Shown piece by piece: positions 1,672 through 62,874 of a stretch of DNA of 64,000 bases (position 1 is the first letter of the stretch; every line of letters begins with the position of its first letter). The translations under genes and the position numbers were made by a program. This stretch comes from Escherichia phage vB_EcoD-Elw, in the sequence record OR621298. One strand, given 5' to 3'. The notes below the pieces were generated by a model. The model saw only the letters and a list, made by a program, of their open reading frames with translations, did no database searches and was not told the origin of the DNA.

Positions 1672-3336
1672 TTACGCAAAAAATTTACCGTTCTTAAAAT
1701 CGATCAAAGTACGCTGACCATTTGCATAGGTAATTAAATGCGTTTGTGTCCAGCTTGACGCGCCAACGTTGTAACCCATGTCCAGACTACCAGCCACGCC
1801 AGCGGTATATACCCCGCCGTAAATGCTGGCGGTATGAGTGTGCCCCGTGTTTAATTTGCCCAATTTCTTAAACTGTTTCGGATTGCCACGGCTGCCGTTT
1901 ATGCCATTGTGACCGTGTACGCCGCATTCAATGCCTGCAATTTTAAATGATTGGTCAGTCGTTAGGAAAATGGCGTTAAACTCGCAACCTGCAACCTTAC
2001 GCAGCGCATAATCTAGCACGTTGAAAGTATCGTCTTTTTCTGCAATAGCTCCGTAAATCGCGGCATTCAGGCGGTGATATAGTTCCGCGTTCGCTGGGTC
2101 GTCTTTAATGTTAGCATTACGATCATCAAGCCAACGGGATAGCGCCAAATCGTGATTCGATTCAACAATGATTGTTTGCGAGAAATCGCGCTCCATTGAT
2201 TCCAGTACGCGCCCCGTATCGATGAGATCATCCAGAACTTTATCACGTCCGGCGGCGTATTGTTTTGCTAGGAATACACCCGAAGCGCGGTTGTGATGGT
2301 TGCGTGATGTAAAATCGTGAACGTCATGGATAAACTGATATTTTGGTTTAAGAATATCAAGCAAGCTATTTTCGCCAGCCCATGACGCAATGGCACAATC
2401 ATCATCAAGTTTTTCGGCGTGTATGTCGCCATATTGCAAGCCTAAAACATGCCCCGATGTTTCATAGCATCCGGCGGGAGTAGCGCAAACATTCAGATCA
2501 TAAAACACCCCGCTTTCGTCCATTGTTTCAAGCTGGCGAACAAAAAACTCACCGTCTTCGTCGAACTCAACAATCAGCGCACCGAAGTTATGCAGTGCTT
2601 CCGCTTTCTGTCCTGCTTTCTGCTGGATGTAATTTTTAAGCGTTGCCGTGCCAGTTGAATACATGCGGCGCACTACTTCACCTTTTAAAGCTGGCACGCT
2701 TTCGGCGGTGATTTTAGCGTGACCAATTGCCAGACCTTCCAGATTAAGCGCGGTTGCAGTTTCAGCGAATCCAGAAAGCGGATAATCTGCGGTGGGCAAA
2801 ACATTAATTTCAGCCATGAAAGCAAAACGGCGATTATTCAAAAACACGTTTTTGCTGCAAATATATTTATCGAACGCGGAATCATATTTTATTCCATCCG
2901 CGCCCTCGCCATTTTGGAATCCGTTTTTATTATAAATATACTTGCTAACCAGCAAATCAGCGCCGATATATTTAGCAAATTGCTCCAGTGAGGCTAAAAA
3001 GTTTTTATGCGGGAACGTATTATTCTGAATCGATGTAATAATAAAGCGTTTGCCTTGTTTTACTTCCCAGCTTTCCACCGTGCTAGAAACAATCCCCGCC
3101 GCTTCTGGGCGCTCATCGTTTTTAATGGCTTTTGCTACTTTCGCCGCTTTCGGTTTCGCTGGTTTATTTGCTTCCAGCCAATCACAAATAGCGGTGGAAT
3201 GTTTTGGAGTATCGTAAACCGCTTTTGATATATCGTCACAAACTTCCAATTTAGTGGCGCGCAGGCGTTTACCGTAGAAATTAAAGTCAGCGGCCATTTT
3301 CAGGATAACGGTTTGTTTTTCTGCGGAAATAATCAT
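1672..3336 (-). CDS. A1: A1-like pre-early protein (calcineurin-like metallophosphoesterase fold, probable nuclease)
   Basis: 554-aa ORF; metallophosphoesterase-type motifs (GDIH, GHTH); ATG with RBS; size and position match T5 A1. Confidence 0.7.
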   Translation of the reverse strand: MIISAEKQTVILKMAADFNFYGKRLRATKLEVCDDISKAVYDTPKHSTAICDWLEANKPAKPKAAKVAKAIKNDERPEAAGIVSSTVESWEVKQGKRFIITSIQNNTFPHKNFLASLEQFAKYIGADLLVSKYIYNKNGFQNGEGADGIKYDSAFDKYICSKNVFLNNRRFAFMAEINVLPTADYPLSGFAETATALNLEGLAIGHAKITAESVPALKGEVVRRMYSTGTATLKNYIQQKAGQKAEALHNFGALIVEFDEDGEFFVRQLETMDESGVFYDLNVCATPAGCYETSGHVLGLQYGDIHAEKLDDDCAIASWAGENSLLDILKPKYQFIHDVHDFTSRNHHNRASGVFLAKQYAAGRDKVLDDLIDTGRVLESMERDFSQTIIVESNHDLALSRWLDDRNANIKDDPANAELYHRLNAAIYGAIAEKDDTFNVLDYALRKVAGCEFNAIFLTTDQSFKIAGIECGVHGHNGINGSRGNPKQFKKLGKLNTGHTHTASIYGGVYTAGVAGSLDMGYNVGASSWTQTHLITYANGQRTLIDFKNGKFFA

Positions 3337-3688: not shown

Positions 3689-4105
3689 TTATTCGCCTGC
3701 GGCTTGTTTCACTTCATCGGCAACGCCTAACAGTTGCGCCACGGCGTCCAGCGTTTCCAGTTTTGCGCTTTCCAGTGATGCCAGATCGTCGGCGTCTTTG
3801 ATAATGCCGGAATCGATAGCGTGTTTTGCAATAACGCGCACATAATGCGCTTTGCGGATTGAGCTACCGCCGCCAACTTTGCGCGGCTTATCGCTTTTCT
3901 GATACGCTTTTGCGCTGGTCAATTTTGAGCGAACGGACACGGGGGAGGCCGCGCCAACTGCTTTTGCAATCTCTTTCAGGCCGTCGCTATTTGCGAAATC
4001 TAAACCGTTTTCATTAATTAACTGCTGGTACATGGTAACAGCTTTTTGGGTGTTTTCTTCATTCCATGCAAATTTTGCGGATTTTTCGGTTTTAACGTTA
4101 GCCAT
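3689..4105 (-). CDS. A2: A2-like pre-early protein
   Basis: 138-aa ORF directly downstream of A1-like gene; RBS AGGAG; assignment by size and synteny only. Confidence 0.5.
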   Translation of the reverse strand: MANVKTEKSAKFAWNEENTQKAVTMYQQLINENGLDFANSDGLKEIAKAVGAASPVSVRSKLTSAKAYQKSDKPRKVGGGSSIRKAHYVRVIAKHAIDSGIIKDADDLASLESAKLETLDAVAQLLGVADEVKQAAGE

Positions 4106-5348: not shown

Positions 5349-5746
5349 TTATCCACTTGACTTTTATTTTCCAGTGGATAACTACTTATTTTATGAAATA
5401 AATTAATTGACTTTTATTTGTTAGTATGCATCGGAAGAATAGCAGACTAATAATTACTAGAATAATAATCATGCTGGTGGATTGTAACGGCCTAAACTAT
5501 CAGCAGACTATTAATCACGAAAAATCTCGTTAGCTAACTAACTATTTCATGATGTATAATATACATATAAATTAATGAGAAATAATAATTATAATAAATA
5601 ATAACTACAGTAAATAATAACTATAAGAAACTATCGGCCTAAGTGAGAACCACTATCATTTAAGTTATACACAAAGTTATCCACAGCACTTTTTGACTTT
5701 ACACGATAGGCGGCGATATAAGGACTTTTACACAGACTTATCCACA
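5349..5746. promoter_or_regulatory. DnaA-box cluster (5349-5357, 5373-5381 inverted, 5677-5685, 5738-5746)
   Basis: TTATCCAC(A/T) matches; the first two form a 9-bp inverted pair with a 15-bp spacer. Confidence 0.55.
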
Positions 5747-5756
5747 GGTTATTCCA

Positions 5757-5772
5757 CTGTATAAATATACAG
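5757..5772. promoter_or_regulatory. LexA-box-like palindrome CTGTATAAATATACAG
   Basis: CTGT-N8-ACAG with AT-rich spacer, next to a perfect DnaA box. Confidence 0.4.
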
Positions 5773-6039
5773 GGTAAAAAGGTAGTGTTAACAACTGCAA
5801 TCAATTTTAAGCGGCTTAAATCGCATTCTAACGAGCTAAACGCTGCGGGGTAATATTAAAGTAAAGCCTTAATGCGTCACCCTGGTGGCTTCGCCGTGGT
5901 TTGCTCTTTATTGCACCGCTGCGCGGTTAGCATAAAAATAGGCGCTAGGCAAGGAAAATAAAAAGGTAAAATAATATTTGCCTATGCTAGAAATTTACCT
6001 TTATCATTCACTCACCGATTAACGAGGGAGGCCGAACAA

Positions 6040-8359: not shown

Positions 8360-8704
8360 ATGGTTATTTATGAGGGCAACCGCTTTGTTGCTAATTGCCG
8401 CCCTGCATTGCTAGCAAATTACTTAAATCAGCTTTCACCAGCTTATAAGGGCGTTATTAATATTTATGAAGGCAAGGCGCATTATAAAATCAATGCGGTC
8501 GTTGCCCGTGAACTAGCGTTTCAATTTTTGACCTTTGCATCTTGTGACGTTCAGGTCATGGGTGAAGCGTTAATTGCAGAAAATGAAGATGATTTTATTA
8601 ATATTTTTCGCAAGATATGCACCGAGCGCCTGATAATGAAAGGCGCTTATATTCAATCCACTGCGGATAGTATTGAAACAGCGTTTCGAAAGGTGGCGCA
8701 ATGA
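8360..8704 (+). CDS. hypothetical protein
   Basis: ORF 8321..8704 trimmed to first ATG just after upstream stop. Confidence 0.5.
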   Translation: MVIYEGNRFVANCRPALLANYLNQLSPAYKGVINIYEGKAHYKINAVVARELAFQFLTFASCDVQVMGEALIAENEDDFINIFRKICTERLIMKGAYIQSTADSIETAFRKVAQ

Positions 8705-8904
8705 GCAATAAAATTGTTGTAACCAAAATCAGTACAATGGTTGATGTTTTTTACGTGCCCGATACGCCGGAAAACCGGCAAGCGGTCGAGCGTGGCGAGT
8801 ATGATAAAGTGATTTATGATCACGATGGTTATTATCAGCATTTGGTCGATTCCTATGGGGAAGAGGAAAAGATCACGCATCAATTACCGGAGGATGGTTT
8901 ATGA
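8701..8904 (+). CDS. hypothetical protein
   Basis: 67-aa ORF overlapping the upstream stop by 4 nt. Confidence 0.5.
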   Translation: MSNKIVVTKISTMVDVFYVPDTPENRQAVERGEYDKVIYDHDGYYQHLVDSYGEEEKITHQLPEDGL

Positions 8905-9014
8905 AACGATGGTTTAATCACTGGTATAAGCGGTTTTTAGTACGCCGTCGCAAATCTAGACATCAAGATGAGTGGCGGGAGTGGGCAAAGCGTAACGGTT
9001 GCCCGCTACTCTGA
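8901..9014 (+). CDS. small basic protein (37 aa)
   Basis: ATGA start/stop overlap with upstream gene; not in ORF track. Confidence 0.3.
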   Translation: MKRWFNHWYKRFLVRRRKSRHQDEWREWAKRNGCPLL

Positions 9015-9155
9015 GAACGACGGGGATTAGCTCCCCGTTTTTCCATGCCTCCAGTTAAATACCCCCTTGTTTTAGTATCCCCACCAAAATTAAACGCGTT
9101 AGAATGCGATCTAGGACGTTTTAGCGGTATATTAGAATTATTCACTACATAGGAA

Positions 9156-9175
9156 TACTGTATATTTATACAGTA
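9156..9175. promoter_or_regulatory. near-consensus LexA box TACTGTATATTTATACAGTA
   Basis: 19 of 20 match to TACTGTATATATATACAGTA; immediately followed by a DnaA box. Confidence 0.5.
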
Positions 9176-9183
9176 GGATAAGC

Positions 9184-9265
9184 TGTGGATAAGTCTGTTA
9201 ATAACGCCTCAAAATGGCTAGGATTCTGTCAAGTCAAATCGTGCTGTTAATAAGTCTGTGGATAA
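9184..9265. promoter_or_regulatory. DnaA boxes (9184-9192 and 9257-9265, both TGTGGATAA)
   Basis: Two perfect reverse-complement matches to TTATCCACA within direct repeats of aagtctgttaataa. Confidence 0.55.
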
Positions 9266-9289
9266 CTTAAATAATAGTGTTTCTCACTT

Positions 9290-9440
9290 CCATTCTTAAA
9301 TGCAAATCATTATCATTCGCATTTCACTTTCTAAATGAGAATCATTTCACTTCTTGAATAGTTCTCATTTCACTTTTTAAATGCGAATTATTATCATTCT
9401 CATTTCGCTTTTTAAATGATTCTTATTATCATTCGCATTC
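9290..9440. repeat. degenerate tandem repeats (~25-30 bp unit, catttcacttt...aaatgagaat) with internal inverted symmetry
   Basis: 4-5 reiterations of TCATTTCACTTTYTRAATG-like units. Confidence 0.6.
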
Positions 9441-9444
9441 AGGC

Positions 9445-9466
9445 GCGCAGGGCAATTGCCCTGCGC
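9445..9466. repeat. 22-bp perfect palindrome followed by a T-run
   Basis: GCGCAGGGCAATTGCCCTGCGC then TTTT; terminator-like or protein-binding site. Confidence 0.7.
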
Positions 9467-9470
9467 TTTT

Positions 9471-10070
9471 GTGCAAATCCGACATTGCTCCACGGGTGTT
9501 ACGTGCGGGCGTGTATGTGCGAATCCGACAATTTTTGGTAGTGTGCAAATCCGACCCGAAAAATTTTTATAGTGTGCAAATCCGACAATGAATTTTCCCA
9601 AAAACTCCAGCAATCCGATGCTGCGCATCAATCCTGTGGAATTAGCTAGAATATGTGCAAATCCGACATGGGTTTATTTGTGCGAATCCGACAAGATTTT
9701 TGTGACTTTGATTGGAGGGTGTGTGATTGTATGGGTTTGAGGAGAAGATGAGAGAGCGAGAAAAATTTGAGGGAACTGTGAGAGGGGCGCAGGATTGGTG
9801 CGGAGCACCTGATTTGCGGGGATTTTGGGGAAGAGTTGAGATAATTTGGGAAGATTTGGGATAGGTGCAGATAAAGTAAAATTTTATTAGCAAAACGAGG
9901 CAAAATAGCTTGACAAGTGAAAATTTCTGTGGCTCTAAAAACTCAGGCAATCATGGGCCTTCGGCCCGAAATAATGCTGCTATTTTCAGGAGATTATATG
10001 TTCCTAAAAACTTAGGCGTTTGTGCAAATCCGATCATAAATTTCTAGAAATGCAGTGTGCAAATCCGACA
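9471..10070 (+). repeat. array of 8 direct 14-bp iteron-like repeats GTGC(A/G)AATCCGACA
   Basis: Copies at 9471, 9517, 9543, 9574, 9655, 9680, 10022, 10057, all same orientation, irregular spacing; non-coding. Confidence 0.8.
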
Positions 10071-10578
10071 GTAATTTCTGGAAATGTGTTTTCAAAAAAT
10101 GTCTTCTAGAAATAACCGCCCTCCCTATAACCGCCTATTGCTGGAGTTTCTAGGAACAATGAAAACCGCCTGAGTTGGCTAGAGAAACAGATTTAAAGTT
10201 TAATGTAAACTCTAGAGTTAGTGCTCAACTATTCCTAGAAACTCAGGAGTCTAGAAGAAAGTGTTGTGCCATCCTAGCAGATGAGCAGCAACAGGTGTAT
10301 CATCTTGAACACAGATATTGCCTTTAAATATTCTCTTGTAAATAAAATTAATAGTTTCCCCAATCTCGTGAGTCTGCTGCTCTAGGCGTTCAAGATCTGT
10401 ATGCTAATCCCGTGAGAACTGCTGCAGAATACATCCTATCGCCGGAGGCGTCGGTGTACTCTTCGAGTTGGGATAGCAATAATCTTGTTGCCTAGAGCTA
10501 AAAACAGAAGTTGTTTTTAATCTATGAGATTATTATAACATGTTTGGGTATGAGAATGCAAGAAATTTTTGCTACTAT

Positions 10579-11310
10579 TTATTCCTTTCGTCTGTATTTG
10601 AGAACGATGCCCTTCGAAACCATGAAGAGGAAAGTTGCTAGATAGGAATGTGGGCTTTTAAGCGCATCATAATCTACTGTCCCGAAAGAACCTTCGCCGA
10701 AAACTTCAGAGTTCTCAAATGTAGGAAGTAAACGTGCCAATCCTACAGCTCCTATAATCTTAAAGAATTGATCCCAGTCATTTAACATTGCTTTATGTGC
10801 AGACTGTAAGATTAATGGCATCTCTAGGTTCTTTTCGAGACATAGATGAACCTGCGCAATCGTAGAGGCAATCCCTAGCAACACTTCATCTTTTGTATAA
10901 GGGAATCCAGTATCTTTTCTTTGGAGTCTAGGAAGATGATCATATTCACAACGTTTAGGTGGGATGAACTTTTCCTCGGGATATAATTCTAATGCAACTC
11001 TAACGTTTCCTTCTTTAAATACTGGAAGTTCCTGATCTGCAAAGACATGATATGAATCTGCCTTGAACCCTACAATCTTATCACCAACAGAATTGATGAT
11101 CTTTCTCATTGCAATATAAGAAGGGGATAGAGTTACGAATTTTTCTTCTTTATTATATTTAACAATTCCAGCTTCTGTATAAGCTGCGGGATGAAACTCA
11201 GAACAGAATGCTACTGCATGAGCTTCATCAGGAGTTAGTTCAGAAACACATTTGCCGTCAGCATTCTTAGCCAGCTTAATAATAGTCTTTAAATTCTCAC
11301 TAATACTCAT
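10579..11310 (-). CDS. hypothetical protein
   Basis: 243-aa ORF from track. Confidence 0.55.
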   Translation of the reverse strand: MSISENLKTIIKLAKNADGKCVSELTPDEAHAVAFCSEFHPAAYTEAGIVKYNKEEKFVTLSPSYIAMRKIINSVGDKIVGFKADSYHVFADQELPVFKEGNVRVALELYPEEKFIPPKRCEYDHLPRLQRKDTGFPYTKDEVLLGIASTIAQVHLCLEKNLEMPLILQSAHKAMLNDWDQFFKIIGAVGLARLLPTFENSEVFGEGSFGTVDYDALKSPHSYLATFLFMVSKGIVLKYRRKE

Positions 11311-22098: not shown

Positions 22099-22851
22099 TT
22101 ATCCAACTAGTGGTTCTAGCTCTAAGTCACAGAAGTTATAAACTTCTAGTTTAAGGTTATTGATACCATCGAATTTATTAACTAATTCGTGAGTAATATA
22201 TTTTGCAGGAATACCACTTTCAGATGGATGATCTGATTTAATAGTGAACTTCTGCTCAGCGGGTACTACATTTACTATCAAAGAATCCATATCTAAATGG
22301 TTTGTTTCTCTGAGTAACTCTCCTTCATTGGGGAATCTAACATCTGTTATTACGGCGACATCTGGGTCGTCTTTAGCGATGGATTGCTCCAGAATTATGA
22401 GCCAAATGCGTTCATGCACCAGCTGCCTTCCTAGCTCTGTCCCTACGAGCTGTAACATTTTTCTCGGAGAAATAAATAAACTATAAAGTCCGTCTTCTTT
22501 ATTCTCTGAGATAAGTTGTTGAGGATTAAGATATTTTTCCTCAAAAATAGGCCAAACGTACGAGAAGTCTTCAAACTTATCGATACCGTACTTAAACCAC
22601 ACATCTCTGGCTCGCTCCAGTTGAGATTGTGTGACCGTAAACCATTGGTCAATCTCTTTTCCCCTGCGCTCTCCTAAAAACTCTGGAGTTACACCGAGGA
22701 TTACGGATGCAAGTTCATAAACGGGCTTAGCAAAACTATAACGACGGGATAAACACGTTGGATACGTGTCATTACACCAATCGATAATTAATTTTGCAAC
22801 GGTATCTTTTCCCGAACCAGCTTCACCATGTAAACCGACTAATACTGACAT
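22099..22851 (-). CDS. dnk: deoxynucleoside monophosphate kinase
   Basis: 250-aa ORF; P-loop GEAGSGKDT near N-terminus. Confidence 0.6.
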   Translation of the reverse strand: MSVLVGLHGEAGSGKDTVAKLIIDWCNDTYPTCLSRRYSFAKPVYELASVILGVTPEFLGERRGKEIDQWFTVTQSQLERARDVWFKYGIDKFEDFSYVWPIFEEKYLNPQQLISENKEDGLYSLFISPRKMLQLVGTELGRQLVHERIWLIILEQSIAKDDPDVAVITDVRFPNEGELLRETNHLDMDSLIVNVVPAEQKFTIKSDHPSESGIPAKYITHELVNKFDGINNLKLEVYNFCDLELEPLVG

Positions 22852-39420: not shown

Positions 39421-39460
39421 ATACAGAAAAGCCCTGCGCTCTCCAGGAAACGCAGGGCTT
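39421..39460 (-). terminator. rho-independent terminator (convergent)
   Basis: stem AGCCCTGCG/CGCAGGGCT with U-run in minus sense, downstream of the SPFH gene. Confidence 0.55.
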
Positions 39461-60084: not shown

Positions 60085-62874
60085 GTGTTTTCTATTCTCC
60101 AAGGTCACGCCGGATTTTCTCGTGATTTAGCAACAGGTATTTGGCGAGAAATCAAAGCGGAAGATTATACCTTTGCCAAGCGATTCTCGAAAAAGCATCC
60201 AGAAGGTAAACCAGCTTCTATGCCCTTCAAATTTGATGTAATAGAAGAGCATGACCCGCAAAGCCTTGCCGAAATGTTACCACTTATGAGACGTTTAACG
60301 TCTGACCCTCATATCGTTGCGGTACGAGGTCGATGTCTTGCACCTAAAAATAACGTGCGACGTAAGAAAGGTAACTTTAATGTATCTAATCCTAGTAATA
60401 TTATTGCTATGGACGTGGATGGTATCCTAGATACCGGTGGGTATGACAAGTTTAACCTTGTTGGTATGGCCCGCCACATTATTAAGATGTTGAATAGTAT
60501 TAGTGAGGACATGTTCCCTCTTGATGCAGGCTTTATAGCTCATGCATCGTCTTCGGCTGGGCTTAAACCAGGTATCCGAATGCACTTAATGCTAGAATCT
60601 AACGTCAAGGTAACTCAGGGTCAGTTAAAGTTCTTATTTACATCTATCAACGATAGTAGTAAGCAAAAATTTGGTTTTGATATTGCCGACTTAGCTTATT
60701 ATTCATCTGTCCAGCTCCACTATTTTGCCGACCCCTTATTTAGTGATGGTATTGTTGATCCGTTTAAAGCGGAGAGTAAGCCACGTCTGGTGTATGTTAA
60801 AGGTTCGAAAGTAAATTTGCCCAATAATCTGGTTGACTATGAAACAACTAGAGGGGAGTTTAAGGAAGAGTTTTATTCTTTACTTGATCAAATTAAAGGC
60901 AAAAAGATCGCGTCTGATAAAGTAGAAGAAACCATCAGCGAATTGGAAGAAGCTGAGGATGGGGTGTACCTGCGTATTATCCCCAAACTATACCATAGAG
61001 CATTAGAGGATGGTGTTGATTTTGCATGGCTAGAACGTGAGATTAAACCCGCTTTATCTGAATATATTGCAACTAAAGATAACAGTCGTAATATTCAAGA
61101 TTACTTTAATAACGGTCGTAAGCAGGCTCTCAAAGCGTTTGTTAATAATTCTAAACGTGAGATTCCATTAAATCTGAAAGGTGTTCCGCTCAAGAAGTTA
61201 GAAGTGGATTCTCCACCAGAAGTTCCGTACCTGAAGATTAACATTGTGCCTCCAAAAGGCCATATAACATTTGTTAAGGCAAGTCTTGGTACTGGTAAAA
61301 CTACGGCAGTAACTAAATGGCTGGACGCAGGTGTTCTTCCTGGCAACTTTTTAGCAGTTACAAATACTAGAGCACTGGTATCTTCAAACGCTAAGAAATT
61401 TAGCGCAGGACAATATGATAAGTCTGTAGATATGCTCAACTTTAAACGTGGAGCTATTGATCGTATGTCCACAACTATTCACTCTTTGCATAAGTTCAAA
61501 AGTTTTATTGGTCAAATAGATACCATTTTTATTGATGAATGTGATGCTGTAATGAATGATCTATTATTCGCACCTGTTGTTAAGCAACGTCGCGAATGTA
61601 TTCAAGTTCTACGTGACATCCTCATGACAGCTAAAACTGTAATTCTATCAGATGGTGATATTAGTGCCGAAACTATTGAAGCATATGGTTCTCTAATTGA
61701 TTTTGATAAACCAGTAGCATTTTATAATCATCACCGTAAGATGCTGTCAAAAGCTCATGCTTATGAGTTCCCGGATGAGTCCAGTATTTGGGTTGCACTT
61801 CAGACTTCTCTAGAGATGGGTGAGAAATCTATCCTAGTATCTGATTGTGGGCCGGATGAACTGAATGAGAAGGGCATGGCGTTGCGTCGTAATACGGGTG
61901 CATTAGTTAAGGAAATCCACTCAAACTCTACGTCTGATGTAGATATTAGACGTATTCTGGATTACACAACTAATGAGCTAATTGACCAACAAATTGATTG
62001 CTTATTATGTAGTCCATCTGTAACGAGTGGTGTTGACTTTAACTATTTTGATAACGTATTCGTTATCACTAGAACTAGCAACCAAGCGCCAAACATGCGT
62101 TTCCAAGCAATCAGGCGCGACCGTGGTGCTCAGAATATCTATTATTTTATTGATAAATCCACTAGTGGGTTCTCCGCAGGTTCTGAACAATATAATATTG
62201 ATGAAGGTTGGCTGGAGTTAGCACAGCAATTATACGCACGTCGCAGAGAACTAGAATCTAGGAACTATACTAGTACTTTACGTTATTACTTGCTTGATCA
62301 GGGTGCAACTATTGATATTTTCAGCGAAAGCTGGGGAACTATTGAAGGTGCTGGTAAAGAATACACAGAAGAGCGAATCAAAGCTATCCTACATTCAACT
62401 CCGGATTACTGTGCACCACGTCATGCGGATGCGTATGAGGCTAAACTACTTCTTGTTCGCTATTATCATCTTGAGTCTATTAAAGATGTAACAGTTGAGC
62501 ATGTTGAACAATATATCAAAGATAAACCGAATGATCGAGCTGCATTCTTCCATAAGATGCACGAGATGTTCTGGGAAGATATTAAGAAGTGTTCAAATGT
62601 GACCATTAAACCATTCATAGAGGCTCTGAAAGGTAAGAAGAAAGACTTCTTCCTTAAAACAGGTCAGAGTGCTAACCCAAAATATGCTAGAATGTATCTT
62701 GGTATGATGGGTATTGGTAAGGATATGAACACTGAAAATATTGTAGACTGGTACAGAACCTATTGTAAAATCGAGTGTATGCCAATCCCATATAAGTTTA
62801 TGACTGATGAGGAGAAACATATGCATGATGAAGCAATGGCAGAGCTAGGTGCTAGAAATGACAGTGAAGAATAA
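60085..62874 (+). CDS. large P-loop NTPase, helicase-like (possible replication-associated protein)
   Basis: 929-aa ORF, GTG start after RBS CAGGAG; Walker A ASLGTGKTTAV and DExD-like FIDECDAV. Confidence 0.55.
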   Translation: MFSILQGHAGFSRDLATGIWREIKAEDYTFAKRFSKKHPEGKPASMPFKFDVIEEHDPQSLAEMLPLMRRLTSDPHIVAVRGRCLAPKNNVRRKKGNFNVSNPSNIIAMDVDGILDTGGYDKFNLVGMARHIIKMLNSISEDMFPLDAGFIAHASSSAGLKPGIRMHLMLESNVKVTQGQLKFLFTSINDSSKQKFGFDIADLAYYSSVQLHYFADPLFSDGIVDPFKAESKPRLVYVKGSKVNLPNNLVDYETTRGEFKEEFYSLLDQIKGKKIASDKVEETISELEEAEDGVYLRIIPKLYHRALEDGVDFAWLEREIKPALSEYIATKDNSRNIQDYFNNGRKQALKAFVNNSKREIPLNLKGVPLKKLEVDSPPEVPYLKINIVPPKGHITFVKASLGTGKTTAVTKWLDAGVLPGNFLAVTNTRALVSSNAKKFSAGQYDKSVDMLNFKRGAIDRMSTTIHSLHKFKSFIGQIDTIFIDECDAVMNDLLFAPVVKQRRECIQVLRDILMTAKTVILSDGDISAETIEAYGSLIDFDKPVAFYNHHRKMLSKAHAYEFPDESSIWVALQTSLEMGEKSILVSDCGPDELNEKGMALRRNTGALVKEIHSNSTSDVDIRRILDYTTNELIDQQIDCLLCSPSVTSGVDFNYFDNVFVITRTSNQAPNMRFQAIRRDRGAQNIYYFIDKSTSGFSAGSEQYNIDEGWLELAQQLYARRRELESRNYTSTLRYYLLDQGATIDIFSESWGTIEGAGKEYTEERIKAILHSTPDYCAPRHADAYEAKLLLVRYYHLESIKDVTVEHVEQYIKDKPNDRAAFFHKMHEMFWEDIKKCSNVTIKPFIEALKGKKKDFFLKTGQSANPKYARMYLGMMGIGKDMNTENIVDWYRTYCKIECMPIPYKFMTDEEKHMHDEAMAELGARNDSEE

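What the first reader, a model, noticed from the sequence alone, without database searches (positions are those of the whole stretch)
9290..10560. Repeat-dense non-coding region with eight 14-bp iterons, a 22-bp perfect palindrome and tandem repeats
About 1.3 kb with no credible ORF contains: degenerate ~25-bp tandem repeats (9290-9440), a perfect palindrome GCGCAGGGCAATTGCCCTGCGC (9445-9466), eight same-orientation copies of GTGC(A/G)AATCCGACA (9471-10070), TTTCTAGAAA-type palindromes, CTA(A/G)AAACTYAGG repeats, and a purine-rich tract (9700-9880). Position and character fit the terminal-repeat boundary / injection-stop region described for T5, but the iteron-like array could equally be an origin or a partition-like site.
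Basis: partly seen in the sequence, partly recalled or inferred. Interest (0 to 1): 0.5.

Follow-up and report, generated by a model that had tools for sequence, protein, structure and literature searches.

The report
T5-type terminal-repeat boundary repeat region
This repeat-dense non-coding stretch is this phage's copy of the long-known "Repeat Region 3" / injection-stop region at the right end of the left terminal repeat of T5-like phages, so it is real and conserved but not new, and how it works is still unsolved.

Summary
The window is the left end of a T5-like phage (Tequintavirus), starting one base from T5's left terminus. Positions 9290-10560 align collinearly with T5 "Repeat Region 3", annotated in GenBank AY587007 and discussed by Davison.

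- The eight 14-bp "iterons" are T5 "direct repeat D" (DRD).
- The 22-bp palindrome is T5 palJ. It carries the recognition motif of major nick 1 (7.9%).
- The AT-rich tandem repeats are T5 direct repeats C (DRC; Davison's DRE).
- The T5 and BF23 terminal-repeat end (GGATC|TAAAAAC) maps to window 9935|9936, between DRD6 and DRD7.

The origin reading is weak but not excluded. The partition reading has no support.

Beyond the literature I read:
- The DRD motif and the whole architecture persist in Sugarlandvirus, Pectobacterium phage My1 and a Vibrio phage whose A1 protein is only 33% identical.
- DRD clusters flank the repeat end in all four lineages.
- The left part holds a near-perfect LexA box and Fur-box-like repeats next to the known DnaA boxes.
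- Three PhageTerm "repeat ends" in public records sit exactly on the nick site.

No function was tested here. My preferred role for DRD, terminase recognition at the repeat end, is inference.

The parts
9019..9043 (+). Hairpin plus T-run, homologue of T5 palindrome C / putative rho-independent terminator that ends the rightward pre-early operon
   Evidence: Aligned to T5 9194-9213, annotated as terminator; sequence read. The simple scan did not list it.
9143..9289 (.). IRD'-spacer-IRC' block; 147-bp inverted partner lies at 5641-5787 (T5 Repeat Region 2)
   Evidence: Inverted repeat I1, 76% complementary; T5 annotation; Davison preprint
9156..9175 (.). palD = TACTGTATATTTATACAGTA, 19/20 match to the E. 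coli LexA (SOS) box consensus; weaker partner at 5755-5774
   Evidence: 3 matches vs 0.10 expected; conserved in 42 of 63 fetched loci and in Sugarland, My1 and Noelle. The LexA consensus is from my own knowledge; binding is untested.
9184..9265 (-). Two pairs of DnaA / DnaA* boxes, 3 bp apart within each pair: TTATCCACA at 9184-9192 and 9257-9265, TTATTAACA at 9196-9204 and 9245-9253. Four more consensus boxes lie at 5665-5746.
   Evidence: sequence; matches Davison's description
9290..9440 (.). AT-rich (27-31% GC) degenerate tandem and inverted repeats = T5 DRC / palE-I (Davison's DRE). Contains three Fur-box-like 15-mers (9301, 9382, 9417). The T5 shear point (end of first-step-transfer DNA) maps near 9416.
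   Evidence: T5 annotation; shear point
9445..9466 (.). Perfect 22-bp palindrome = T5 palJ. The right arm CCCTGCGC (9459-9466) is the T5 'major single-stranded nick 1, 7.9%' motif (bottom strand A/GCGCAGG). It also scores as a + strand intrinsic terminator (9-bp stem, then TTTT).
   Evidence: nick consensus R/GCGCRGG from PMC3517423
9471..9693 (+). DRD copies 1-6 (9471, 9517, 9543, 9574, 9655, 9680), inside the predicted terminal repeat
   Evidence: cores more conserved than most spacers between them
9617..9629 (.). Small hairpin GATGC-TGC-GCATC whose stem covaries among relatives (CGAAC/GTTCG, GTGC/GCAC) around an invariant CTGCG
   Evidence: Alignment; fold (weak, z = -1.0)
9694..9880 (+). 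G-rich, C-poor tract, including T5 DRA copies 2 and 3 (9821-9839, 9844-9860; GATTTTGGGGAAGA-type)
   Evidence: a similar tract is present in Sugarland, My1 and Noelle
9871..9935 (+). Most deeply conserved block, ending at the predicted right end of the terminal repeat (9935|9936, GGCTC|TAAAAAC); contains TTGACA at 9910-9915
   Evidence: T5 repeat end 10139 and BF23 repeat end 9743 map here; My1 end is at the equivalent site; it lies inside the only stretch (window 9848-9941) still found by blastn in Sugarlandvirus; 1.85 bits/column
9935..9947 (+). CTAAAAACTCAGG, first of three direct copies (also 10004-10016 and 10235-10247; inverted copy at 10144-10156); straddles the predicted repeat end
9955..9967 (.). 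GGGCCTTCGGCCC hairpin, conserved in all but one (L039) of the aligned Tequintavirus/Epseptimavirus sequences
   Evidence: z = -2.1
10022..10070 (+). DRD copies 7 and 8, outside the predicted terminal repeat, each followed by a TTCTAGAA/TTCTGGAA element
10113..10170 (+). Three copies of AACCGCC (10113, 10128, 10163); the block AGAAATAACCGCCCTCCCTATAACCGCC is nearly invariant and is also present in My1 and Sugarland
10171..10560 (.). Poorly conserved tail of the non-coding region, downstream of the first leftward early gene (10579-11310, - strand). T5's ninth DRD copy has no counterpart here.

Best explanation
**Identity (high confidence).** This is the phage's copy of the T5 'Repeat Region 3'. 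That region is the ~1.2-kb untranslated stretch spanning the right end of the left terminal repeat. In T5 it holds the genetically defined cis-acting injection stop signal, major nick 1 and the terminal-repeat end.

**Mechanism (inferred, not shown).** I read it as a composite protein-binding platform in three parts.

1. **Left part, 9143-9440.** It is built from consensus-like sites for host DNA-binding proteins: paired DnaA boxes, a near-perfect LexA box, and Fur-box-like AT-rich repeats. By homology with T5, this is the DNA at or just inside the cell envelope when transfer pauses. A nucleoprotein complex there is the most likely brake. My probability is about 0.4.
2. **Palindrome, 9445-9466.** Its right arm carries the T5 nick motif, and the bottom strand is probably nicked after 9466 in virions. 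My probability is about 0.8, by homology.
3. **DRD iterons and boundary block.** The two DRD clusters (9471-9693 and 10022-10070) flank the deeply conserved block that ends at 9935. I think they are binding sites for a conserved phage protein that positions the cut creating the right end of the terminal repeat. The terminase small subunit is the most likely candidate. My probability is about 0.35.

The confidence figure below refers to the identity claim.
For: **Identity**
- Best DNA hits are T5-like phages at 85-95% identity.
- The region aligns collinearly with T5 and chee24, and every T5-annotated repeat is recovered in order.
- The inverted partner of the left block lies at 5641-5787.
- Eight DnaA-type boxes sit in pairs 3 bp apart, as Davison describes.
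- dmp, A1 and A2 lie to the left.
- Window position 1 equals T5 position 2.

**Repeat end**
- T5 and BF23 (the latter from PhageTerm) end at the identical site, GGATC|TAAAAAC.
- My1 ends at the equivalent site. Stitch ends within 4 nt of it.

**Functional constraint**
- DRD cores carry 1.9-2.0 bits per column for six of the eight copies, against 1.2-1.7 for most spacers.
- The motif GTGCAAATCCGA and the order of elements persist in Sugarlandvirus, My1 and Vibrio phage Noelle, whose A1 is 33% identical.
- In all four lineages a DRD cluster lies on each side of the boundary block.
- In IMG/VR, paired DRDs gave 48 loci, nearly all on contigs of T5-like length; I did not check the four metagenome contigs.

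**Link between nicking and terminase**
- The T5 gene annotated sciB matches the terminase small subunit family at E = 6.5e-91.
- sciA and sciB are reported as the nicking genes (PMC3517423).
- The nick motif lies 3-4 bp upstream of DRD1 in T5-like phages, Sugarland and Noelle.

**Host-factor sites:**
Against: - No binding, cleavage or injection data exist for this phage. Every functional statement rests on homology or anatomy.
- The literature I read treats the function of these repeats as unknown.
- DRD spacing is irregular, and some relatives carry homing-endonuclease insertions or lost copies inside the array. A rigidly phased complex is therefore unlikely.
- T5 has two further DRD copies inside the D13 gene at about 65% of the genome. 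A repeat-end-only role does not explain them.
- One paper states that the left end of T5 is packaged first. That conflicts with the last-in-first-out reasoning that would make this site the packaging start.
- Fur-like boxes are weak or absent in Epseptimavirus and absent in the Vibrio phage.
- A T5 mutant deleted from hegG to 017 is viable. By the T5 map that span includes Repeat Region 2, so half of the DnaA and LexA-type sites are dispensable.
- T5-like phages grow on the host strain DH5a, which is recA1 by my own knowledge. LexA cleavage therefore cannot be required for transfer to resume.
Confidence: 0.85

Rival explanations
1. The DRD iterons are binding sites for the pre-early DNA-binding protein A2, alone or with A1. 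Binding next to the paused DNA pulls in or releases the rest of the genome (second-step transfer).
For: A2 is an essential, predicted DNA-binding protein required for second-step transfer, with no known target. It matches a PHROG 'DNA binding protein' family. It is conserved in the Vibrio phage at 42% identity, as is the motif. DRD1 starts about 55 bp to the right of the mapped end of first-step DNA.
Against: At the pause the DRDs should still be outside the cytoplasm, to the right of the shear point. Two or three copies lie beyond the terminal repeat, and two lie in gene D13 in T5. The terminase small subunit is equally conserved at 43%, so conservation does not discriminate between the two proteins.
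Confidence: 0.22
2. The region is a replication origin of the iteron type. DnaA boxes, an AT-rich unwinding block and iterons would be bound by a phage initiator such as the UL9-like D2 helicase.
For: The order DnaA boxes (9184-9265), AT-rich repeats (9290-9440), iterons (9471-9693) mirrors plasmid origins as I know them. The window encodes a 929-aa helicase matching Pfam Herpes_ori_bp (30.5 bits, cut-off 20). A role for T5 D2 in initiation has been suggested. A second DRD pair lies inside a gene at ~65% of T5, and DRD-like motifs occur in a different reading frame in distant D13 homologues.
Against: Electron microscopy placed T5 origins near the genome centre (cited). Iteron spacing is irregular: 46, 26, 31, 81, 25, 342, 35. 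No initiator gene is adjacent, and the flanking gene has no Pfam hit. The Pfam match covers only the helicase core, not a DNA-binding domain. The array is split by the terminal-repeat end.
Confidence: 0.1
3. Davison's model. Membrane-bound DnaA binds the eight DnaA boxes and stops the DNA. An A1/A2 nuclease then cuts at a palindrome to the right, in both terminal repeats, freeing the rest of the genome and circularising it.
For: The eight boxes in pairs are present here exactly as described. Palindromes, including a perfect 22-mer, lie just to the right.
Against: The model is untested. It assigns no role to DRD, by its own admission. A T5 mutant deleted from hegG to 017 is viable; by the T5 map that span includes four of the boxes. 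The palindrome arm is already accounted for by the virion nick motif.
Confidence: 0.1
4. A partition-like (centromere) site, or repeats with no function (slippage debris or a mis-called coding region).
For: Same-orientation short repeats resemble some centromere arrays. Several records annotate ORFs across the region.
Against: This is a virulent phage with no sign of a partition system near the site. The motif is conserved across three subfamilies plus Sugarlandvirus while spacers diverge. The annotated ORFs are not conserved, are broken by 1-2-nt indels and have no family match.
Confidence: 0.02

Closest known systems
Bacteriophage T5 'Repeat Region 3' / injection stop signal region (annotated in GenBank AY587007; discussed by Davison, bioRxiv 10.1101/866236)
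   Same: Same position, same order of named repeats (palC, palD, IRD'/IRC', DRC, palJ with nick 1, DRD, DRA). Same paired DnaA boxes and same inverted partner 3.4 kb to the left. Same terminal-repeat end sequence. About 85-90% identity over the core.
   Different: Eight DRD copies instead of nine. palJ is a perfect 22-bp palindrome here but imperfect in the T5 record. One DRC unit is missing. The tail right of ~10150 is diverged.
SPP1-type pac site (terminase small subunit boxes pacL and pacR flanking the cut site pacC) and lambda cosB (from my own knowledge)
   Same: Short direct repeats on both sides of a defined terminus-generating cut. One candidate reader is the terminase small subunit.
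   Different: No sequence similarity. T5 has long direct terminal repeats and two distinct cut sites. Binding has never been shown. This is a resemblance in how it may work, not membership.
Iteron-type plasmid and lambda-type replication origins (from my own knowledge)
   Same: DnaA boxes, an AT-rich block and same-orientation iterons in that order.
   Different: Irregular spacing, no adjacent initiator gene, and reported T5 origins elsewhere.
Site-specific nicks of T5/BF23 (consensus R/GCGCRGG)
   Same: The right arm of the palindrome carries the motif on the bottom strand. The same 8-mer, CCCTGCGC, recurs at 22662 and 39432, where T5 nicks 2 and 3 map.
   Different: Here the left arm also carries GCGCAGG on the top strand, preceded by C rather than a purine.

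Membership tests
T5-type Repeat Region 3 / injection-stop region | Large untranslated region downstream of the rightward pre-early operon and before the first leftward early gene | tested here: met
   ORF map; no PHROG hits; frame-breaking indels in relatives
T5-type Repeat Region 3 / injection-stop region | Collinear set of named repeats (palC, palD, IRD', DRB, IRC', DRC, palJ, DRD, DRA) | tested here: met
   T5 feature table and alignment
T5-type Repeat Region 3 / injection-stop region | Inverted partner IRC-spacer-IRD in Repeat Region 2, and eight DnaA / DnaA* boxes in pairs 3 bp apart | tested here: met
   147-nt inverted repeat 5641-5787 / 9143-9289; boxes
T5-type Repeat Region 3 / injection-stop region | dmp, A1 and A2 genes to the left, in the same terminal repeat | tested here: met
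   ORFs 110-844, 1672-3336, 3689-4105; A1 up to 98.9% identical to T5-like A1 proteins; A2 family match
T5-type Repeat Region 3 / injection-stop region | The region spans the end of a long direct terminal repeat present at both genome ends | not testable with these tools
   The window covers only 64 kb. The end is predicted at 9935|9936 by homology with T5 and BF23.
T5-type Repeat Region 3 / injection-stop region | Cis-acting arrest of DNA transfer after ~8% of the genome | not testable with these tools
   Needs infection experiments. Shown only for T5 and BF23.
T5 nick site | R/GCGCRGG on the nicked (bottom) strand at the position of major nick 1 | tested here: met
   Bottom strand reads A/GCGCAGG at 9466-9460; T5 annotation; consensus. 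Actual nicking is not testable.
Iteron-type replication origin | Regularly phased iterons next to the gene for their initiator | tested here: not met
   Spacings 46, 26, 31, 81, 25, 342, 35; the flanking 243-aa gene has no Pfam hit
Iteron-type replication origin | DnaA boxes and an AT-rich unwinding region adjacent to the iterons | tested here: met
Iteron-type replication origin | Replication starts here | not testable with these tools
   The literature cited places origins near the genome centre.
Terminase recognition site (pac/cos type) | Contains the mature chromosome end | tested here: met
   By homology only: T5, BF23 and My1 repeat ends
Terminase recognition site (pac/cos type) | Terminase small subunit binds repeated boxes beside the cut | not testable with these tools
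   The anatomy fits, with DRD clusters on both sides in four lineages. No binding data exist.
Partition site | Adjacent ParA/ParB-type genes | not tested
   No systematic search was done. The neighbouring gene has no Pfam family.
Intrinsic terminator | GC-rich stem followed by a T-run | tested here: met
   9445-9466 plus TTTT, 9 pairs of which 8 are GC. Transcription through it is not known.

The most novel reading that the evidence does not exclude
The injection-stop region may be a two-part device conserved across all Demerecviridae.

**Left half.** It is a mosaic of high-affinity sites for abundant host regulators: a near-perfect LexA box, paired DnaA boxes and Fur-box-like repeats. Together these would form the roadblock that halts DNA entry.

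**Right half.** It is an array of one nearly invariant iteron, GTGCAAATCCGA. A single conserved phage protein would read this iteron at the terminal-repeat end and at a second site inside gene D13. That would tie together terminus formation, nicking and possibly replication.

Neither the LexA nor the Fur resemblance appears in Davison's preprint, and the few searches I ran of the held paper library found no link. The family-wide reach of the iteron is not covered in that preprint either, since its phage set includes no Vibrio phage.
Probability: 0.2. Interest if true: 0.65.

Novelty: already known. Interest (0 to 1): 0.25.

Why it matters
How T5 stops and restarts DNA injection has been open for more than fifty years, and this region is where the cis-acting signal lies. 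This copy adds no new kind of element.

The comparisons made here do narrow the search:
- The iteron, the nick motif next to it and the block at the repeat end are the parts conserved from E. coli phages to Vibrio phages.
- The left half looks like a set of host-regulator sites.

Both points are directly testable with purified proteins and with the T5 genome-engineering methods now available.

A practical point follows as well. Automated terminus calling can mistake the nick for the repeat end, which affects terminal-repeat annotation in public T5-like records.

Tried and rejected
- **Known RNA families.** An Rfam scan of 8500-11000 at E<=1 gave only three sub-threshold chance hits. No known RNA family is present.
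- **Promoters.** The promoter scan was only marginally above shuffles, 9 against 5.2. The conserved TTGACA at 9910 has no acceptable -10 element at 17-19 bp, so I do not call it a promoter.
- **Coding potential.** The two longest ORFs have no PHROG match, and their frames are broken in relatives.
- **DRD as a general companion of nick sites.** Rejected. No DRD-like site lies within about 1.4 kb of the nick-2 and nick-3 motifs.
- **A2 versus terminase small subunit by conservation.** This led nowhere. Both are 42-43% identical between T5-like phages and the Vibrio phage.
- **A host transcription factor for DRD.** I compared the motif by eye, from memory, with CRP, the GalR/LacI family, FadR, MarA and CytR. 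Nothing was convincing.
- **UL9 box.** The reverse complement of DRD contains TT(C/T)GCAC, which resembles the herpesvirus UL9 box as I recall it. This is a post-hoc 6-7-nt match, so I keep it only as a lead.
- **tRNA T-arm.** The DRD core resembles the tRNA T-arm consensus (PWM hits in the phage tRNA genes), but the flanks cannot form a T-arm stem.
- **LexA cleavage as the release timer.** Rejected as a requirement, because T5-like phages grow on the recA1 strain DH5a (host strain; the recA1 genotype is from my own knowledge).
- **Davison's 2015 review.** It could not be retrieved.
- **Technical note.** Only some fetched loci were visible to scripts, so sequences were passed through alignments.
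Full report
**What the window is**

The region and its flanks match several hundred T5-like phage records.
- The best matches are FFH_1 at 94.7% identity, and NBSal003 and chee24 at about 90%.
- The left part of the window encodes dmp, A1 and A2 on the minus strand. The A1 protein is up to 98.9% identical to those of sequenced T5-like phages.
- T5's right terminal repeat begins TGTCCACTGCC and the window begins GTCCACTGGC.

The window therefore starts one base from the left terminus of a Tequintavirus genome.

**Check of the observation**

- **Iterons.** The 14-mer GTGCRAATCCGACA has eight same-strand copies between 9471 and 9693 and between 10022 and 10070. The whole window has 10 matches at two or fewer mismatches, against 0.44 expected. 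A weight matrix built from the copies scores them at 25-30 bits, and the next best site in 64 kb scores 17.8.
- **Palindrome.** The 22-bp palindrome at 9445-9466 is perfect.
- **Tandem repeats.** They span 9296-9439 with periods of 23 and 35 bp rather than about 25. They are also inverted relative to each other. The 150-nt block folds far better than shuffles, z = -5.55.
- **G-rich tract.** GC skew reaches 0.79.
- **Other repeats.** The CTARAAACTYAGG repeats and the TTCTAGAA palindromes are confirmed.
- **No real gene.** ORFs are short. The longest two have no PHROG match. Close relatives differ by one- and two-base indels inside them.

**What it is**

GenBank AY587007 (T5) annotates every repeat in this stretch, and the window aligns to it collinearly.

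| Window feature | T5 name |
|---|---|
| 14-bp iterons | direct repeat D (DRD), nine copies near this boundary in T5, eight here |
| 22-bp palindrome | palindrome J |
| Right arm CCCTGCGC (9459-9466) | 'major single-stranded nick 1, 7.9%' |
| AT-rich repeats | direct repeat C and palindromes E-I |
| G-rich short repeats | direct repeat A, copies 2 and 3 |

- Davison's preprint calls the whole stretch 'Repeat Region 3' and places the cis-acting injection stop signal in it.
- The region actually starts further left than the finding. The block 9143-9289 is the inverted partner of 5641-5787.
- That block carries two pairs of DnaA-type boxes 3 bp apart. Four more boxes lie in the partner. This is exactly Davison's description.

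**The terminal-repeat end**

- T5's left repeat ends at 10139, within GGATC|TAAAAACTCAGG.
- BF23's end, determined with PhageTerm, is at the identical site.
- My1's annotated end is at the equivalent position, after TTGACAAATGAAAAAGTTCGGGGGGCGG.
- Stitch ends 4 nt to the right and Kenya-K38 ends 27 nt to the left.

This site maps to window 9935|9936, between DRD6 and DRD7.

Two other kinds of annotation exist.
- chee24 and chee130_1 place the end about 205 bp further left, in the G-rich tract.
- Seafire, Seabear and Sugarland carry PhageTerm 'repeat ends' that fall at, or one base from, the end of CCCTGCGC, which is the nick motif. The simplest reading is that the nick imitates a terminus in read-start statistics.

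The window cannot show its own duplication.

**How deep the conservation goes**

- Across 22 Tequintavirus and Epseptimavirus sequences, six of the eight DRD cores carry 1.87-1.98 bits per column. Most spacers carry 1.2-1.7.
- With blastn, Klebsiella Sugarlandvirus phages retain only window 9848-9941, the block just left of the repeat end.
- Read by eye, Sugarland, Pectobacterium phage My1 and Vibrio phage Noelle all show the same order of elements. Noelle's A1 is only 33% identical. The order is:
  1. A LexA-like palindrome with DnaA boxes.
  2. Tandem repeats.
  3. A DRD cluster, directly preceded by a CCTGCGC motif in Sugarland and Noelle but not in My1.
  4. A G-rich tract with TTTTGGGG-type repeats.
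  5. A TTGAC-containing boundary block.
  6. A second DRD cluster.
- The motif itself, GTGCAAATCCGA, hardly changes.
- A scan of 2.9 million viral contigs for two DRDs 10-40 bp apart found 48 loci. Nearly all lie on contigs of 104-123 kb, and four are metagenome contigs I did not characterise.

**How it may work**

Nothing here is shown experimentally. What follows is inference from anatomy.

*The left half.* In T5 the shear point that defines first-step DNA is about coordinate 9618, which is window ~9416. When transfer pauses, the left half (9143-9440) is therefore at or just inside the envelope, and the DRDs are still outside. The left half is made of sequences that resemble sites for abundant host proteins.
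- **DnaA boxes.** These are already known.
- **palD.** TACTGTATATTTATACAGTA at 9156-9175 differs at one position from the LexA box consensus as I know it. The core CTGTATAWWTATACAG is present in 42 of 63 fetched loci.
- **Fur-box-like repeats.** The AT-rich repeats contain three 15-mers within two mismatches of the Fur 7-1-7 motif TGATAATNATTATCA. Most Tequintavirus relatives have two to four. Two relatives carry perfect copies. Epseptimavirus has none or one.
- Neither LexA nor Fur is mentioned in Davison's preprint.

A host-protein roadblock is thus plausible. Two results limit it.
- A T5 mutant deleted from hegG to 017 is viable. By the T5 map that span includes Repeat Region 2, with half of these sites.
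- T5-like phages grow on DH5a, which is recA1 by my own knowledge. LexA cleavage therefore cannot be needed for transfer to resume.

*The DRDs.* I favour a role at the repeat end.
- Clusters lie on both sides of the conserved boundary block in all four lineages. This resembles small-terminase boxes flanking a pac cut site, a comparison from my own knowledge.
- There is a link between terminase and the adjacent nick. The T5 gene annotated sciB lies directly upstream of the large terminase gene and matches the terminase small subunit family at E = 6.5e-91.
- sciA and sciB are reported as the genes responsible for nicking.
- The nick motif sits 3-4 bp before DRD1 in T5-like phages, Sugarland and Noelle.

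Several points count against this.
- Nick sites 2 and 3 (window 22662 and 39432) have no DRD nearby.
- T5 has two more DRD copies inside gene D13 at 79019-79048.
- One paper says the left end is packaged first.

*Rivals.*
- **A2 binding for second-step transfer.** A2 is an essential, predicted DNA-binding protein with no known target.
- **An iteron origin read by the UL9-like D2 helicase**. Irregular spacing and the reported central origins count against it.

Conservation of A2 and of the terminase small subunit is equal, at 42-43%, so it does not discriminate between them.

**Verdict**

This is a correct rediscovery of a known, named and annotated element. The mechanism remains unknown in the literature and is not resolved here. 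The useful additions are the family-wide reach of the iteron and of the architecture, the LexA- and Fur-like sites, and the nick/terminus confusion in public annotations.

Noticed in passing
window 9156-9175 and 5755-5774: palD is TACTGTATATTTATACAGTA, one mismatch from the LexA (SOS) box consensus. A weaker copy sits in the inverted partner region. The core is conserved across T5-like loci, Sugarland and a Vibrio phage; My1 has one mismatch in it. Davison's preprint does not mention it.
   Followed up: partly
window 9301-9315, 9382-9396, 9417-9431; also 219-233: Fur-box-like 15-mers (TGATAATNATTATCA, two mismatches each) lie in the AT-rich repeats. A perfect Fur box lies inside the dmp gene near the left terminus, where it encodes DDNDY. 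Relatives carry 0-4 such sites, and two have perfect copies in the repeats.
   Followed up: partly
L004 610, L005 718, L006 1239 (Seafire, Seabear, Sugarland): PhageTerm-derived 'terminal repeat ends' in these public records fall at, or one base from, the end of CCCTGCGC, the T5 nick-1 motif. That is about 350-470 bp left of the T5/BF23-type end. The nick probably mimics a terminus.
   Followed up: yes
window 22662-22686 and 39432-39439: The T5 nick-2 and nick-3 motifs (CCCTGCGC) are conserved here. Nick 2 is followed by CTAAAAACTCTGG, which resembles the CTAAAAACTCAGG motif at the predicted terminal-repeat end.
   Followed up: partly
L015 46017-46499 (T5 108016-108498): The T5 gene annotated 'SciB protein' lies directly upstream of the large terminase gene and matches the PHROG terminase small subunit family (E = 6.5e-91). 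Since sci genes are reported to control nicking, terminase may make the nicks.
   Followed up: partly
L015 17021-17049 (T5 79019-79048); alignment A3: Two tandem DRD copies lie inside the D13 (exo2) gene, 370 bp right of nick 4. Distant D13 homologues (about 40% identity) carry DRD-like motifs nearby in a different reading frame, which hints at selection on the DNA itself.
   Followed up: partly
window 5641-5787 and 9143-9289: The 147-bp inverted repeats bracket the 3.4-kb rightward pre-early operon. Davison reports this segment as the least conserved part of the repeat and as replaced by oppositely oriented genes in other lineages. It looks like an exchangeable cassette.
   Followed up: no
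window 9617-9629: A small hairpin, GATGC-TGC-GCATC, has a stem that changes by compensatory substitutions among relatives while the centre CTGCG stays fixed.
   Followed up: partly
window 9821-9860: GATTTTGGGGAAGA / ATTTGGGAAGATTTGGG repeats lie on the strand that runs 5'->3' towards the repeat end. A similar tract (GATTTTGGGGATTTGGG) occurs at the same place in a Vibrio phage.
   Followed up: no
window 10113-10170: AACCGCC is repeated three times in a nearly invariant block just right of the outer DRD pair.
   Followed up: partly
window 60085-62874: A 929-aa helicase matches Pfam Herpes_ori_bp above threshold, in the helicase core only. It is the homologue of T5 D2, for which a role in replication initiation has been suggested. 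Its DNA target is unknown.
   Followed up: partly
relatives SA001, NR01, KKP_3831, and locus L039: Some relatives carry homing-endonuclease genes or rearrangements inside the DRD array, so exact spacing of the copies is not essential.
   Followed up: no
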